64,000 nucleotides of DNA, from the NCBI RefSeq assembly GCF_006345805.1, contig NC_043001.1, positions 109,492,001-109,556,000 on the forward strand, in the 5' to 3' direction. Positions 32,129-38,100 of this stretch are shown in pieces (the first letter of the stretch is position 1; the number at the start of each line of letters is the position of its first letter). The position numbers were made by a program. Origin of the DNA: Octopus sinensis (taxonomy: Eukaryota).

Positions 32129-35100
32129 CGCATTTGGGGATGGTCATCTTGCCAGTTTAACCAATGAAAACACACGCACTATATATTTGGTGTTTTGCTT
32201 CAGCGTTATTTGATATCAACTGTACTTGTACCTTTTGGTTTTTAAATTGCGAATAGCCGTCTTAATTATTTACAGACACACAGACACAGACGCGCGCGTT
32301 TATAAATTCGTTTTGCAAAATTCTTGATGTGAATTCGTGTATCGAAACTGATATTGTTGCATTTCGTCACACTTCTGTGACCTCATCAGTGGTCCTTTGC
32401 TTTCTTCTTTCTTTTTTTTTTTGCGTCTCTCCGGCAGATCGTTGGTAAGGAGAGACACAAAAAAGAAAGAAGAAAGCGAAGGGCCACAGACGAGGTCACA
32501 GAAGTGTGTCCAAAAAACTCTGGCCGAAATACAATTAATATAAAAAATAAAGATGAAGCAAGTGAACACCAAATATATAGTGCATGTGGGTTTTCACTGA
32601 GATCTAAGCACATTCCAGAATATGTATACTGTTAAAGCACTTGGGGCCTACACGAAATAACTATCAAACGAATCTGCTTAAACATTTCTCTTATAAACTA
32701 ATAAAGACTTTCATATTAATGTGCATTTATCTAATTATAAACTTTTTATTTTCTCTTTGCAGTGACTGGAGTTGGAACCAAGCTGACATTACATGGCATC
32801 TCATTTCTTTATAGCCTATTTGCTGTTATCTTCATATTACCTGGGGTCAAGTCTTACAATGTGACGTTGAACACTACAACATTTGTCGCTAATTCTAGTT
32901 GTAACATATATTTCTCTGAACCGGAATTCGCAAAGGAATTCATGGTGATTTATGAACATGTAGAGTTGGTGAATATACGGGTGGATTTCCCATCTAATTT
33001 TATAAATCCTTTGTTCGAAGTCAAAGATTATTATAATCCAGAAATTTGGTATTTATCAACGTACGAGCACGGTTTAACTCTACTGAAACTCCCTTTTCAG
33101 CATACATTTTTCTCGTTATCCACTTTAGAAAGGAGCGTGAGGTATATAGATTTACGCCTCCGAGACTCACCTCCGCGCTGTCTGCAGGAACTGCCGTTTC
33201 ATGAAAGGATGAATGTGGTTCGCAAATTTCAGTTTGATCATCTAAAGCAGGATAAGCAGCTGGGCTACGTATCTATTTGTAATCAGATAATAAAATCTAA
33301 AGAAGGGCATGCCGAATTTGTTAATTTCTGTTGTAAGAAAAATAACGCTGGTAAGATAGTATGTCACGAGGAAGATATAGGAATCTGGGTATCGATACTG
33401 TTCTGGCTGCTTGCGGCTTTGCGACTGATTATCTTACTATTCTCGCCACTACTGCTTCCACAAAGCATGTACAACGCAGCATATGTCATGTCTGAATATA
33501 CAGTTAAACTAAAATCTCCTTTTCTCTTGAACTTATTTGTGTCAACCAATGAAGACTGTATTGTTCGATACAAGAAACGCTTGGTGAACTCAGACATTAA
33601 ATCTTGGAACAAATTTAACCATTTAATTCAATATATACCTCAAGAGAAAGTCGTTCCAGTACAAATTAGTGAACTGAACATCAAAGTTAAAGGAAAAAGA
33701 ATCGTTGAAGGAAACTATCCGCCATCTGGTCTAATGAAATCTTTATACGATAATTTCATTCGATGCAAAGTCAAAAACATAGAAACCTTTACAGATTGTT
33801 GCGAAAGTAGTATTTACGGAAAATGTGTGGATCTGTTCATTAATTACAACATCACGTGGCATACATGCATGAAGACATTTATCAAATTAGTGATGCTGTT
33901 ATTACTTCCATTGCCATATTATATCAGAGTAGTAATTTATTACATATTCGAAGAACCTGTGTTTAATTTTCGCCGTATGTTCGTTGCAGCAAACAGACTG
34001 GATGTATCATATAATTTCGTATCACAAACATTTTTACAATACTTTTCTCCAACTCATCCTATATTCATTACAACATATTTGTGTTATATCTTATCTGGTT
34101 TTATAATTGGCTTCGCTAATCCAAGCGGCAGAGAAATACTAAAAGGTGTCATACGAGGTTCTCTGCAAAATATGCGCGATGTAACTTATGTTGGAGGCGT
34201 TGAGATGATTACAAAACTTGCCTTGAACCCTTTTAAAACATTCGGTATTCTTGGTTTATTACTAGCCCCAGTATATTGGCTGTTCGTTATACCATTAGGA
34301 TGTGTATTGTTTTTTATATATAGCATTCCAATCATTTACTTAATCACTGCAATATTTCGACACACCATACGGGCTTTTCCGCTATTTGAGAAGAAAAGGC
34401 ATCTTCTCCCCAAACGAGCATCACGAAAGATCAAAGAGTTAACCGAGTCGATGAAGGCAAAATTTAAAAATGATTTGTATTATTATAAAGAAACAGAACC
34501 AACTAGATCAGAACAGGTCGTCAAGATAATAAAGTTATGTGCTGTAACTTCTTATTGCATAACTGTTCTCTTCTCATTTACTCTCCTTGTAAGCGAATGT
34601 CTTGCTTTTCTGTTACAAGTAGCAACATATACAATGATGGGATTCATAGTAAATGCCTCTTCCCTTCTTAAATATGTAACCATGGCTCTTCTTGTTATTG
34701 TTTATATGCACGACTGTTATCAGGACGTATATCAAAATTACGTGACGTTCACGAAGGAAATAATTGACGCTTTAATGGACAGAGCAGAAAATATCAAAGA
34801 AGTCGCATCTCAGTCAGCTGATGTTCAGGAAAATGCTGCTTTCCAAGTTTCCCTGCCAACGGATGTTACACCGATTTCAACAAATTTCAACAACGATAAA
34901 GGAGAACCTAGATGGAACGTCGGGCATTTATCCATTTTCTTAGACAAATACGATACTCCAAGAATGCCATTGAGATTATTTAAAGATATGTGCGACATAA
35001 GGACCTGGGGTTCACCAGGACCTGTTTATATAAATTTGCTTATAGCGACAAGAAAGTTTCTTACAATAGTTGTTTTTCTTGCCTTTGTATTAGTTGTTGT

Positions 35101-38100
35101 ACTAGCTTTTGGTAATGTCTACAGGGTTTCATCAACAAACCAAACATTAGCAGCAATGGCAGGGGGATTTGTTCCTCTGCTGCTAAAAAATGTCCTCTCC
35201 TCGCGTGTCTTAAAATTAAATTTAAAAACATTAGCCTTTAAGGGCCAGTTGGATGAGGTGTTATCTGCATATAGACAAAATTGGCCTATTAGCGATCTTG
35301 TTTTCGATTGGGGAGAAAATATCGCCCCAAGTGTATCAAATGAAAATGGTTTAAGTGTTACCGATATTAGCAGCAATGATCTCCTAAATAAATTTGAAGA
35401 AACATTCACGAATTCTGATACTAATCCATTTCATAACAAGGAATCATTGAAAACATCATCAAATATTGACGGATCAATAGGCGAATTACATTACAATAGT
35501 GACGAGATCGATCTGTTTATCGATCTCACATCGACGATAAATTCAGACACGTGGCTAGAGACACCTCATGATTCACACCCCGATTTGACCTTAAGCCATA
35601 TTGTTACTGTACCTCCACCTTATTCTGTCAAACATTTATAATCCACTGTCAACATTATCATAAAGAAATATCAAAAAATATTTGTGGTTTTTTTCTCTGA
35701 TTTTTTTTTTCTGTGATATTTTTTAATGTAACCGTGTATTTATTTGAAAATTTTATTCACAGAGTTGCAGCTCATCAAAAAATATTGTAAACCATGTCAG
35801 CTCTCATAGAACGGAATATCAATCAAAATATTTTTAAGAGTGCCTTTCACAACTTGTTATAGTGTATCCAATACAACATTGTGGAGGCGCAATGGCCCAG
35901 TGGTTAGAACAGCGAACTCACGTTCGGAAGATCACAGTTTCGATTCCCAGGCCGGGCGTTGTGTGTGTGAGTGTGTGTGTTTATTGAGCGAAAACACCTA
36001 AAAGTTCCACGAGGCTCCAACAGGGGGTGGTGGCGACCCCTACTGTACTCTTTCGCCCCATCTTTCTCTCACTCTTTCCTCCTGTTTCTTGAGTAACGCT
36101 GCGATGGACTGGCGTCCCATCCAGCTGGGGGGAACACATACGCCACAGAAACTGGGAAACCGGGCCCATGAGCCTAGATAAGCTTGAAAAGGGCGCATAA
36201 ATAAAATACATTACCAAATGCATTCATCCAGTTTTGTAAGTTTAAGCCAGATGTATAACACTGACATATTTACAAATTGCAATGAAACTGCATAATGTAT
36301 TTTCACACAAAGACATAAACTCGAAAGATAAACCAATTAAACTAAGATTCATCAAGAATTGTGAGAAACCCTCACCCGAAACCAGGGTCATAGTATATCG
36401 GGCATTCCCATATCTGCTACATCAGAGTTTCTCAAACTTTTTGGCCCCCCCACCCCTCATAACCACATAATACGCTCAGTGCTCCACCCCTATTTTTATA
36501 TATAAATAAATATTTTATATTTTATTAATTTATATGTACAATGAATCATTTGATATTTAATATATTATATGATTTGTGTGGAGGCGCAATGGCCCAGTGG
36601 TTAGGGCAGCGGACTCGCGGTCGTAGGGTCGCGGTTTCGATTCCCAGACCGGGCGTTGTGAGTGTTTATTGAGCGAAAACACCTAAAAGCTCCACGAGGC
36701 TCCGGCAGGGGATGGTGGTGATCCCTGCTGTACTCTTTCACCACAACTTTCTCTCACTCTTACTTCCTGTTTCTGTTGTACCTGTATTTCAAGGGGCCGG
36801 CCTTGTCACTCTCTGTGTCACGCTGAATATCCCCGAGAACTGCGTTAAGAGTACGCGTTTCTGTGGAGTGCTCAGCCACTTACACGTTAATTTCACAAGC
36901 AGGCTGTTCCGTTGATTCGGATCAACCGGAACCCTCGTCGTCGTAACCGACGGAGTGCTTCCATGTCCATATGATTTGTATACAATACTATAACAATATT
37001 ATAATAAATTCATAGCGTCCCCCAATCCACTGTCTTACTCACAACGCCTCCTTTTTCTCTATCAGCAGCCACCTGGACCGTCTCAACGCCCATCAGGGGC
37101 GGTAGCGCCCACTTTGAGAACCTATGTGCTAGATGAAACCTATCGCTATATAGCGTATACCTAATATGTCATCATCATCATCAACGTCGTCTAACGTCCG
37201 CTTTCCATGCTAGCATGGGTTGGACGGTTTGTCTGGGGACTGTCAAGCCAGGTGGAAGAACCAGGCTCCAAACTGATCAGGCAACGTTTCTATAGCTGGA
37301 TGCCCTTCCTAACACCAACCCTTCCTAAAGCACCCACTACACCCTCAGGGTGTAGTGGGGGCTATTTTACGTACTATTGGCACGGGAGCCAGTCAGGCGG
37401 CACTGCTATCGTCCACGTTAGGATGGTGCTTCTTATGTGCCACCAGCACAGGAGACAGTTGGGACTATGGGACAGGCATCCACCACGTCAGGATGGTACT
37501 TTTTACGTGCCACCGGTACGAGAAGCCAGTCAGGCGGCACTGGCAACGTCTCCCGAATCAATGGTGCTTATTGCATGCCACCAGTATGGGAACCAGTCAG
37601 GCGGCACTGGCATCAGCCACAACTACAATTTCCATATTATGTGATTTGATTTTGATATTGATTTACTTCACTCAATAGGTCTTCTCAAGCACGGCATGTC
37701 GCTCGACGATCCAATGGTATTTTTTAAAGTGGGCTGGTTATGTGAAACTGGTAGAGGCTACGGCTGTGATCTCACTTTACTTGCCGGGCCTTTATCAATG
37801 TACTAAAAGCACTTGAATGAGTTAACTTGTTTTATTGCAATTGTCTCATTACGTGTCTGTATTGTGATGTAAATATAATATAGTCAGGTGTGTTGTATGC
37901 ACAACATCCATAAAATTATATTATAGTTGCGCGACTACTAACTGACCAGGTATTTAAAAGATTGTATAAATTGTAATCCGGATAGGTTTGAAAGTACCGA
38001 AACGTACTACATGATATTAAGGATATTATTCATATTACATTAATCACTGCACCGTGTTTACAACACAATAAAAAACTCTAAGTGAAATAATTTTAGCAGT

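What the first reader, a model, noticed from the sequence alone, without database searches (positions are those of the whole stretch)
32763..35641. Unnamed ~960-aa receptor- or channel-like membrane protein encoded almost entirely by one exon
The translation shows a signal peptide, three clustered N-glycosylation sequons, a ~175-aa ectodomain with six Cys (including CC), one TM, a ~140-aa Cys-containing loop, about nine further hydrophobic segments and an acidic tail. It does not resemble GPCRs, Cys-loop chemotactile receptors or any transporter family I can name. I recall similar uncharacterised proteins in molluscs and cnidarians but cannot verify this. Ectodomain plus a multi-TM bundle suggests a ligand-gated channel or receptor (inference).
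Basis: partly seen in the sequence, partly recalled or inferred. Interest (0 to 1): 0.72.

Follow-up and report, generated by a model that had tools for sequence, protein, structure and literature searches.

The report
Uncharacterised nine-helix membrane glycoprotein gene
This is a real two-exon octopus gene for a roughly 960-residue membrane protein from a conserved mollusc and annelid family whose function is unknown and whose predicted fold matches no solved structure.

Summary
Window 32763-35641 (+) is one large coding exon. It follows a splice acceptor and ends at TAA. A 16-base first coding exon (ATG at 9018) lies 23.7 kb upstream, giving a 964-codon model. The exon-2 protein (958 aa) is 93% identical over its full length to Octopus bimaculoides "uncharacterized protein LOC106884358".

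It belongs to a sizeable family: 493 cluster representatives at E<=1e-3. Every named member is a mollusc, apart from the annelid Owenia. All listed homologues carry the precomputed tag PF28478, a model absent from my Pfam copy; I could not learn its name.

Nothing places the family in a characterised one:
- Pfam gave 0 hits for the protein and no family shared by 2 or more of 49 members.
- PDB sequence and profile searches found nothing.
- A confident AlphaFold2 model (pLDDT 81.6, pTM 0.76) gave 0 Foldseek matches at E<=1e-3 against PDB and BFVD.

The inferred layout is a signal peptide, a glycosylated six-Cys ectodomain, TM1, a basic cytosolic loop with three conserved Cys, eight further helices, beta-containing cytosolic segments and an acidic tail.

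The channel or receptor reading stays untested. My best guess is a ligand- or ion-handling membrane conduit, at about 0.3-0.35.

The parts
9018..9033 (+). Coding part of exon 1: the start codon, four more codons (MLRQL) and the first base of a split Val codon. The donor GTAAAC follows at 9034.
   Evidence: Exact match to a pattern back-translated from the orthologue's N-terminus (0.08 expected by chance); sequence read; orthologue sequence.
9034..32762 (+). Intron 1, about 23.7 kb, rich in repeats. Its only frames of 150 aa or more are repeat-derived.
32763..35641 (+). Exon 2: the last two bases of the split Val codon, 958 further codons and the TAA stop.
   Evidence: 93% identity over the full length to P0002.
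32763..32854 (+). Signal-peptide-like N-terminus (with exon 1): a hydrophobic core followed by PGVKS.
   Evidence: Hydropathy. 47 of 60 Met-started relatives in A2 have a hydrophobic N-terminal window. Cleavage was not predicted with a dedicated tool.
32855..33382 (+). Ectodomain, residues 31-206. It holds clustered sequons N32, N36 and N43 and six conserved Cys (46, 139, 172, 189, 190, 200). The predicted fold is mixed alpha/beta.
   Evidence: 3.0 sequons per sequence, Cys conserved in 59-62 of 62 rows, net acidic.
33383..33454 (+). TM1, residues 207-230.
   Evidence: Hydropathy; AlphaFold2 helix 207-230.
33455..33874 (+). Loop A, residues 231-370: inferred cytosolic, basic, beta-rich, then short helices. 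Near-invariant C334, C345 and C346.
   Evidence: Net charge +9.6 and sequons at background level. The Cys are present in 131-132 of 138-139 residue-bearing rows. Strands 242-315.
33875..34372 (+). TM2 to TM5, residues 371-536, with near-invariant R388, E396, H431, Y438 and P522.
34373..34519 (+). Loop D, residues 537-585: a variable, Lys/Arg-rich loop, inferred cytosolic.
   Evidence: low pLDDT.
34520..34714 (+). TM6-TM7 helical hairpin, residues 586-650. The helices are very long (581-629 and 631-673). Near-invariant E611, G626 and N630.
34715..35023 (+). Loop E, residues 651-753: a conserved segment, inferred cytosolic, with five short strands and the LFLD..D.PRIP motif.
   Evidence: 80% identical to the 59%-identical relative P0003.
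35024..35200 (+). TM8-TM9 hairpin, residues 754-812, with the SSTNQ turn. It is the most conserved part of the family.
   Evidence: Identity 100%, 90%, 76% and 56% to P0002, P0003, scallop and Owenia.
35201..35641 (+). C-terminal region, residues 813-958, plus the stop: a conserved helix and beta-hairpin (823-849), then a disordered acidic, Ser/Thr/Asn-rich tail with a short conserved strand (EIDLFIDL, about 913-920).

Best explanation
SHOWN. This is a real two-exon protein-coding gene and the orthologue of Octopus bimaculoides LOC106884358. It belongs to a conserved, multi-copy family of membrane proteins of about 900-1100 aa. Every named member is a mollusc or the annelid Owenia, and all listed members carry the precomputed tag PF28478.

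INFERRED layout. A signal peptide is followed by a glycosylated, disulfide-stabilised ectodomain of about 175 aa facing outside or the lumen. Then come TM1, a basic cytosolic beta-rich loop with a conserved three-Cys cluster, and eight further helices. TM6 and TM7 are very long. A second beta-containing cytosolic loop sits between TM7 and TM8. The C-terminus is cytosolic, with a small beta-hairpin and a disordered acidic tail. That gives nine TM helices, N-terminus out and C-terminus in.

INFERRED mechanism, my commitment at about 0.3-0.35. The protein acts as a membrane conduit, meaning a channel or carrier for an ion or small polar ligand.
- The near-invariant polar residues lie in or at the outer ends of the helices: R388 and E396 (TM2), H431 and Y438 (TM3), E611 and N630 (TM6-TM7), and the SSTNQ turn (TM8-TM9). 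They would form a polar pocket or pathway that opens beneath the ectodomain.
- The faster-evolving ectodomain would confer ligand or environment specificity.
- The strongly conserved cytosolic loops A and E would couple the helix bundle to intracellular partners or regulation.

The gene and family identity is near-certain (above 0.95). The confidence figure given here is for the mechanism.
For: Gene:
- A 966-codon frame against a maximum of 195 in 100 shuffles.
- Acceptor, stop and exon 1 located.
- 93% full-length identity to P0002, which is 964 aa, the same length as the model.

Family:
- 34 of 34 word-search hits carry PF28478.
- 493 representatives at E<=1e-3, 381 at E<=1e-10 and 218 at E<=1e-30.
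- 8 of the 30 representatives I looked up carry names: 7 molluscs and 1 annelid.
- In trees the gene sits in an 11-row clade. Its 8 named rows are all molluscs and are arranged as chiton, cephalopods, bivalves and gastropods (99* FastTree; 97* IQ-TREE quick). A clade containing Owenia is sister to it.

Constraint:
- Identity to relatives is strongly uneven. Against P0003 it is 90% for TM8-9, 80% for loop E, 73% for loop A, 39% for the ectodomain and 23% for the tail.

Topology:
- The ectodomain has 3.0 sequons per sequence, six Cys conserved in 59-62 of 62 rows, and a net acidic charge.
- Loops A, C and D have net charges of +9.6, +3.7 and +2.7.
- AlphaFold2 with 62 sequences gave pLDDT 81.6 and pTM 0.76, with the listed helices and strands.

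Polar residues in the helices, among residue-bearing rows of the 150-row alignment:
- R388 140 of 143
- E396 143 of 144
- H431 132 of 145
- E611 138 of 145
- N630 133 of 146

Not a known family.
Against: - Nothing I ran tests conduction, transport or ligand binding.
- No solved channel or transporter resembles the model. Foldseek's best probability was 0.15, with TM-scores of 0.16 or less for the long alignments.
- Only a handful of polar residues are conserved within the helices.
- The most conserved helices (TM8 and TM9) are almost purely hydrophobic or small-residue. That fits a packing or protein-protein interface better than a pore lining.
- No internal repeat of the kind common in carriers was found. 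hhalign probability was 1.2% or less for all 7 segment pairs.
- I had no model coordinates, so the claim that the conserved polar residues cluster in space is unverified.
- Subcellular location is unknown. The 'ectodomain' may face the lumen of an organelle.
- Expression was not examined.
Confidence: 0.33

Rival explanations
1. The protein is a non-conducting receptor, adhesion protein or scaffold. The ectodomain binds an extracellular partner, and the helix bundle and the conserved cytosolic loops A and E pass the signal to, or organise, intracellular proteins. Nothing crosses the membrane.
For: - The cytosolic loops A and E are better conserved than most TM helices. Against P0003 they are 73% and 80% identical, compared with 54-60% for TM1-TM7.
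- TM8 and TM9 are hydrophobic yet the most conserved part, as expected for a protein-protein interface.
- The ectodomain evolves faster than the core.
- The family has several paralogues per genome, some on the same contig. Mizuhopecten KP79_PYT04408 and KP79_PYT25384 share a contig, as do Patella SNE40_015471 and SNE40_015472.
Against: - No recognisable signalling or adhesion domain: 0 Pfam hits.
- Near-invariant charged residues inside or at the ends of helices (R388, E396, E611) are not needed for a pure scaffold.
- No partner is known.
Confidence: 0.25
2. The protein is a membrane-embedded enzyme of the secretory pathway, such as a hydrolase or transferase. E396, H431, Y438 and N630 at the luminal face would be catalytic residues, and the 'ectodomain' would face the ER or Golgi lumen.
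For: - Near-invariant Glu, His, Tyr, Asn and Arg are concentrated at one membrane face.
- A signal peptide and sequons are equally compatible with a luminal location.
Against: - No similarity to any solved membrane enzyme by sequence or fold.
- No Pfam enzyme family recurs among the 49 members scanned.
- No ER or Golgi retention motif was looked for or seen.
Confidence: 0.15
3. The protein is a very divergent polycystin-1-like protein, with the layout ectodomain, TM1, cytosolic PLAT-like beta module, then a multi-helix channel-like domain.
For: - The order of parts is similar. The polycystin-1 layout is recalled, not tested here.
- UniRef names the colinear Arion orthologue P0020 'PLAT domain-containing protein'.
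- One polycystin chain (6du8_A, PKD2L1) appears in the Foldseek list, at E 7.1 and probability 0.05.
Against: - No Pfam PLAT or PKD_channel hit in the query, in P0020 or in any of the 49 members.
- No polycystin chain in the profile-versus-PDB search at E<=10.
- The Foldseek hit is far from significant.
- I count nine helices, against the eleven of polycystin-1 (recalled).
Confidence: 0.04
4. It is not a functional gene: a chance open frame, a pseudogene or a transposon-derived ORF.
For: - The surrounding window is full of repeats and SINE-like copies.
- I did not see transcripts.
Against: - P(open frame of this length) is about 4e-30, and the shuffle maximum was 195 codons.
- Full-length conservation from 93% down to about 25% across molluscs and an annelid, with region-specific constraint.
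- Intact splice sites and start exon.
- No transposon domains.
Confidence: 0.01

Closest known systems
Octopus bimaculoides uncharacterized protein LOC106884358 isoform X1 (P0002)
   Same: 93% identity over all 958 exon-2 residues. Its length of 964 aa equals the two-exon model here. Its N-terminus, MLRQLV, is encoded exactly by the exon found at 9018-9033.
   Different: It comes from a different Octopus-like genome, and 7% of residues differ, mostly in the signal/linker region and the tail (80% identity each). It has no functional annotation either.
Pfam PF28478
   Same: All 34 hits and all 11 hits carry this tag, including the 93% orthologue.
   Different: My Pfam copy lacks the model (0 hits). 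I therefore could not score the window's protein against it, see which part it covers, or read what Pfam says about it. No paper in the searched library mentions the accession.
Polycystin-1 / PKD1-like proteins
   Same: The order of parts is similar (the polycystin-1 layout is recalled): an extracellular region, a first TM helix, a beta-rich cytosolic module, then a multi-helix bundle. UniRef names the Arion orthologue 'PLAT domain-containing'.
   Different: No PLAT, GPS, REJ or PKD_channel signal by Pfam, by PDB profile search or by Foldseek. The helix count also differs.
Transmembrane domains of type IV ABC exporters (MsbA, PCAT1, ABCB8, TmrAB)
   Same: These are the weak top hits of both the profile search (MsbA, E 0.23, profile positions 503-606) and Foldseek (PCAT1, E 1.7, probability 0.15). 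Like them, this protein has very long helices that extend beyond the membrane.
   Different: TM-scores are 0.10-0.16 and the rmsd is about 18 A. There is no nucleotide-binding domain, and the helix number and connectivity differ. This is not homology.
Cys-loop (chemotactile and pentameric ligand-gated) receptors and GPCRs
   Same: Only the general idea of an ectodomain placed on a helix bundle.
   Different: No Neur_chan_LBD hit. Neur_chan_memb matched 1 of 49 members at E 0.088. GPCR chains appear in Foldseek only at E of 3 or more and probability of 0.05 or less.

Membership tests
PF28478 family (mollusc and annelid membrane proteins of about 1000 aa) | Significant full-length homology to proteins that carry the PF28478 tag | tested here: met
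   E = 0 and 93% identity to P0002. All 34 of 34 hits are tagged PF28478, at 34-93% identity and 63-100% query coverage.
PF28478 family (mollusc and annelid membrane proteins of about 1000 aa) | Score above the gathering threshold of the PF28478 HMM itself | not testable with these tools
   The local Pfam-A copy (24736 models) does not hold this accession. The query gave 0 families.
Cys-loop ligand-gated ion channels | Neur_chan_LBD ectodomain plus a four-helix Neur_chan_memb domain | tested here: not met
   0 Pfam hits for the query. Neur_chan_memb matched 1 of 49 members at E 0.088, and LBD matched none. No pentameric-channel chain appeared in the PDB profile search.
G-protein-coupled receptors (7TM) | A seven-helix bundle recognisable by a 7tm Pfam model or by fold | tested here: not met
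   No 7tm family. GPCR chains appear in Foldseek only at E of 3.0 or more, probability 0.05 or less and TM-score 0.15 or less. I infer nine helices.
Polycystin-1 / PKD1-like | A PLAT domain after TM1 and a PKD_channel-type C-terminal bundle | tested here: not met
   No PLAT or PKD_channel hit in the query, in P0020 or in the 49 members. No polycystin chain at E<=10. 6du8_A appears at E 7.1.
ABC exporters (type IV) | A six-helix exporter TMD coupled to a nucleotide-binding domain | tested here: not met
   Weak hits only (E 0.23; Foldseek E 1.7 and TM-score 0.16 or less). No ABC_tran or ABC_membrane Pfam hit.
Other solved channel or transporter folds in the PDB (for example OSCA/TMEM63/TMEM16/TMC, Piezo, SID-1, RND; these names are recalled examples of what the PDB holds) | Detectable sequence or fold similarity to any solved chain | tested here: not met
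   0 of 76 Foldseek PDB matches reached E<=1e-3 with the pLDDT 81.6 model. The PDB profile search gave a best E of 0.19. Predicted-structure libraries of cellular proteins (AlphaFold DB) were not available.

The most novel reading that the evidence does not exclude
The family is a new structural class of ectodomain-capped nine-helix channel or transporter, or an ionotropic receptor. It would be confined to, or greatly expanded in, lophotrochozoans and unrelated to any solved membrane-protein fold. The octopus gene would be its single-copy, conserved 'core' member.
Probability: 0.25. Interest if true: 0.8.

Novelty: new member of a known kind. Interest (0 to 1): 0.45.

Why it matters
The gene itself is not new. 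Its orthologue is annotated, and the family already has a Pfam accession.

Even so, in every search I could run the family is a blank. It has no name, no paper in the searched library, no solved relative, and a confidently predicted fold that matches nothing in the PDB. It is large (493 cluster representatives), under clear purifying selection and multi-copy in molluscs.

If it proves to be a channel, carrier or receptor, it would add a new membrane-protein class to lophotrochozoan physiology. The fields concerned could include sensory biology, ion homeostasis and biomineralisation. It would also be a clean target for structure determination. If it proves to be a housekeeping scaffold or enzyme, it is one more domain of unknown function resolved.

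Tried and rejected
- Protein Atlas look-alikes for the query and for P0010: no usable hit either time.
- First AlphaFold2 run with 35 close sequences: a poor model (pLDDT 57), and its Foldseek run gave nothing. It was replaced by the 62-sequence run.
- A 150-row alignment was too large for the fold server.
- Word-based search with the 62-row profile returned only 8 already-known proteins, so one search was wasted.
- Homodimer prediction of residues 365-850 in two copies: the verdict was 'no answer', score 0.00, controls not run, and the alignment was not used by the tool. 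This is no evidence either way.
- Internal duplication or inverted repeat within the helix bundle, or between the beta segments: hhalign probability 1.2% or less for all 7 pairs.
- Covarying Cys pairs as a sign of disulfides in loop E or TM6. C651/C743 gave p = 0.55 and C598/C612 gave p = 0.23. One of the 7 pairs, C743/C368, was associated (p = 0.0005), but the association is negative and I did not pursue it.
- Prokaryotic relatives: the first attempt failed because the alignment was too diverse. With A1, 14 pattern matches were found and 0 confirmed.
- NCBIfam: one noise hit, E 0.18.
- tRNA and Rfam scans near the gene: 0 hits.
- Literature: 0 papers for PF28478, for 12 LOC ids or locus tags and for 6 UniProt ids or locus tags. 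Two keyword searches gave only unrelated listings; I read listings only and opened no paper.
- About ten of the top 50 weak Foldseek PDB hits are NTF2-like or ketosteroid-isomerase folds. They span about 51-80 aligned columns, with probability 0.09 or less and E of 4.3 or more. I keep this as a lead for one small alpha+beta module, not a result.

Full report
**1. What is in the sequence**

Residue numbers throughout are those of the exon-2 translation; add 6 for the full-length protein.

On the + strand a stop-to-stop frame of 966 codons runs from 32741 to 35641. It is by far the longest frame in the window. The others of 150 aa or more are repeat-derived, low-complexity frames of 246 aa or less. 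In 100 shuffles of the window the longest frame averaged 133 codons and never exceeded 195. The chance of 966 open codons at this base composition is about 4e-30.

The frame has no ATG before residue 149. It ends with TAA at 35639-35641.

The closest relative is O. bimaculoides LOC106884358 (P0002, 964 aa). It starts MLRQLV and is then colinear with the exon. A pattern back-translated from those residues plus a GT donor matches once in the window with no mismatch, at 9018-9035. It reads ATGCTGCGCCAATTAG|GTAAAC; 0.08 matches are expected by chance.

The model is therefore:
- exon 1, ending at 9033 (16 coding bases);
- an intron of about 23.7 kb;
- exon 2, 32763-35641.

Together these make 964 codons plus the stop, the same length as P0002. 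The joined protein was never built or searched, and every analysis used the 958-residue exon-2 translation.

**2.

One search confirms the following:
- an N-terminal hydrophobic segment (6-30);
- sequons at N32, N36 and N43;
- six Cys at 46, 139, 172, 189, 190 and 200;
- a hydrophobic helix at about 207-230;
- a 140-residue loop with six Cys.

After that loop, the hydrophobic segments combined with the AlphaFold2 helices give eight more membrane helices:
- about 371-396 (TM2);
- 432-452 (TM3);
- 490-512 (TM4);
- 513-536 (TM5);
- an unusually long 587-629 (TM6);
- 631-650 (TM7);
- 754-786 (TM8);
- 790-811 (TM9).

The tail (851-958) has 18 acidic and 4 basic residues.

**3. Relatives**

A word-indexed search gave 34 proteins at E<=1e-3. 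All 34 carry the precomputed tag PF28478.1. P0002 is 93% identical. Three unnamed proteins are 56-59% identical. Named gastropod and bivalve proteins are about 36-43% identical.

An exhaustive HMMER search of 1.84 billion cluster representatives gave 493 hits at E<=1e-3, 381 at E<=1e-10 and 218 at E<=1e-30. Only the best 150 were listed, and most are colinear proteins of 600-1300 aa.

I looked up 30 representatives. Eight carried names:
- Owenia fusiformis, an annelid;
- Liolophura, twice;
- Mizuhopecten;
- Mactra, twice;
- Sinanodonta;
- Patella.

A search seeded with the Owenia protein added a second Owenia paralogue, Babylonia and Mercenaria. Every source name reads 'uncharacterized' or 'hypothetical'. 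The one exception is the Arion orthologue, which UniRef calls 'PLAT domain-containing protein'. That protein is colinear with the query and has no extra domain.

No cnidarian name was seen. This is not evidence of absence, for three reasons:
- 22 of the 30 looked-up representatives are unnamed, and I did not try to trace them.
- 343 of the 493 hits were never listed.
- No collection of non-lophotrochozoan eukaryote genomes could be scanned.

A scan of prokaryotic genomes found no relative: 14 pattern matches, 0 confirmed.

Several genomes hold more than one member:
- Mizuhopecten, at least 3, two of them on one contig;
- Mactra, at least 3;
- Liolophura, Sinanodonta, Owenia and Patella, at least 2 each; the two Patella genes have consecutive locus tags.

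In trees the octopus gene falls in an 11-row clade. Its 8 named rows are all molluscs and are arranged as chiton, cephalopods, bivalves and gastropods. Support is 99* in FastTree with 62 rows and 97* in IQ-TREE quick with 30 rows chosen from those 62. A clade containing Owenia is sister to it (99*). A third, larger group holds further mollusc paralogues. The trees are unrooted, and the supports are SH-like values without bootstraps.

**4. Not a known family**

- Pfam-A found nothing for the query at E<=1.
- Pfam found nothing meaningful for 8 members.
- Across 49 members, 28 different Pfam families were matched by one member each, with a best E of 0.0038. There is no recurring weak signal.
- PDB sequences: single-sequence best E 0.74; 62-row profile best E 0.19 (phospholamban) and 0.23 (MsbA).
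- NCBIfam gave noise only.
- The Atlas gave no usable hit.

AlphaFold2 with 35 close sequences was poor (pLDDT 57). With 62 diverse full-length sequences it was good: mean pLDDT 81.6, pTM 0.76, and 484 residues at 90 or above. Only the linker after the signal peptide and the tail were disordered.

Foldseek with this model found 76 PDB matches at E<=10, none of them at E<=1e-3. The best was E 1.0, the highest probability 0.15, and TM-scores were 0.16 or less for the long alignments. It found 0 BFVD matches at E<=1e-3.

The weak hits to exporter-type ABC transmembrane domains reflect long helices, not a shared fold. AlphaFold DB could not be searched, so 'no structural relative' holds for solved and viral structures only.

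**5. Anatomy and topology (inferred)**

Across 62 sequences:
- The ectodomain carries 3.0 sequons per sequence, about 1.5 per 100 residues against 0.5-0.9 in the other long loops and the C-terminal region.
- It holds six Cys conserved in 59-62 of 62 rows and is net acidic.
- Loop A (231-370) is net +9.6, loop C +3.7 and loop D +2.7, as expected for cytosolic loops.
- Loop B is neutral.
- A sequon at the TM8-TM9 turn (N792) is present in 23 of 62 rows.

This fits a protein with its N-terminus outside, its C-terminus inside and nine TM helices.

The cytosolic side would then hold three sets of strands:
- loop A: 242-260, 269-274, 296-309 and 313-315;
- loop E: 691-695, 707-709, 716-720, 722-726 and 732-735;
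- the C-terminus: 837-849 and 915-920.

Whether these strands assemble into one domain I cannot say, because no coordinates are returned.

Loop A carries near-invariant C334, C345 and C346, present in 131-132 of 138-139 residue-bearing rows. Just before TM2 and on the cytosolic side, these are candidates for a metal site or for palmitoylation. That is inference only.

Near-invariant polar residues in or at the ends of helices are R388, E396, H431, E611 and N630, plus Y438, Y647 and S789. Conserved Pro and Gly in the helices (P384, P522, G626, G801, P804) suggest kinks.

**6. Constraint**

Identity is strongly uneven along the protein. Against the 59%-identical relative P0003:
- TM8-9: 90%
- loop E: 80%
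- loop A: 73%
- TM2-5: 60%
- ectodomain: 39%
- tail: 23%

Against the annelid Owenia, TM8-9 is still 56% identical while the ectodomain is 25%. This pattern, with an intact 958-codon exon, argues for purifying selection. dN/dS could not be computed because no orthologous DNA was available, and transcripts were not examined.

**7. How it may work**

The facts are compatible with several roles, and none was tested. I commit, at about one in three, to a membrane conduit: a channel or carrier for an ion or small polar ligand.

- The conserved polar residues near the outer ends of TM2, TM3, TM6 and TM7, together with the SSTNQ turn, would form a pocket or pathway under the ectodomain.
- The faster-evolving ectodomain would set specificity.
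- The conserved cytosolic loops would couple to regulation.

Against this reading:
- The best-conserved helices, TM8 and TM9, are hydrophobic, which points to a packing or partner interface.
- Few polar residues are conserved inside the bundle.
- No internal repeat exists.

The rivals are a non-conducting receptor or scaffold (0.25), a luminal-face membrane enzyme (0.15), a very divergent polycystin-1-like protein (0.04) and a non-gene (0.01). The remainder is 'something else'.

**8. Novelty and verdict**

The gene is a new member, an orthologue in another Octopus-like genome, of a family that is catalogued (PF28478, RefSeq LOC models) but uncharacterised as far as I could find. Four identifier searches returned 0 papers. 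Paper supplements were closed and might list these genes in expression tables.

Interest is moderate. Many conserved families of unknown function exist. This one is large, well conserved, confidently modelled and without a solved relative, so it is a reasonable target for structural and physiological work.

Noticed in passing
window 4981-5001 (-), 22174-22194 (-), 35887-35907 (+), 36584-36604 (+), 60815-60835 (+): There are five copies of a tRNA-like head, GCGCAATGGCCCAGTGGTTAG, against 0 expected by chance. They probably mark a tRNA-derived SINE family (the SINE reading is my inference). Two copies lie within 1 kb downstream of the gene's stop codon. ARAGORN calls none of them a tRNA, and Rfam finds nothing at gathering score in 30000-39000.
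   Followed up: partly
window 7709-8817: Long microsatellite arrays lie just upstream of exon 1: a 3-base array at 7815-8230 (about 138 copies) and (CTAT)n at 8584-8817 (about 59 copies). They create spurious open frames of 160-250 aa on both strands.
   Followed up: partly
P0020 (Arion vulgaris orthologue; no window coordinates): UniRef names this colinear orthologue 'PLAT domain-containing protein'. Neither it nor any other member scanned matches Pfam PLAT, and Foldseek finds no PLAT-like structure. The source of that name is unexplained.
   Followed up: partly
window 36001-38000 and 58001-60000: These two 2-kb blocks have a higher G+C content (0.45-0.47) than the window's usual 0.27-0.41. 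The first block holds a SINE-like copy and repeat-derived frames at 37195-37678.
   Followed up: no
Homologues P0045, P0064 and P0046 (unnamed ENA records): Three divergent family members have cluster members on contigs of the same four lengths (232003, 870781, 1019613 and 1338543 bases). This suggests linked paralogues in one set of related assemblies. I did not trace the records.
   Followed up: no
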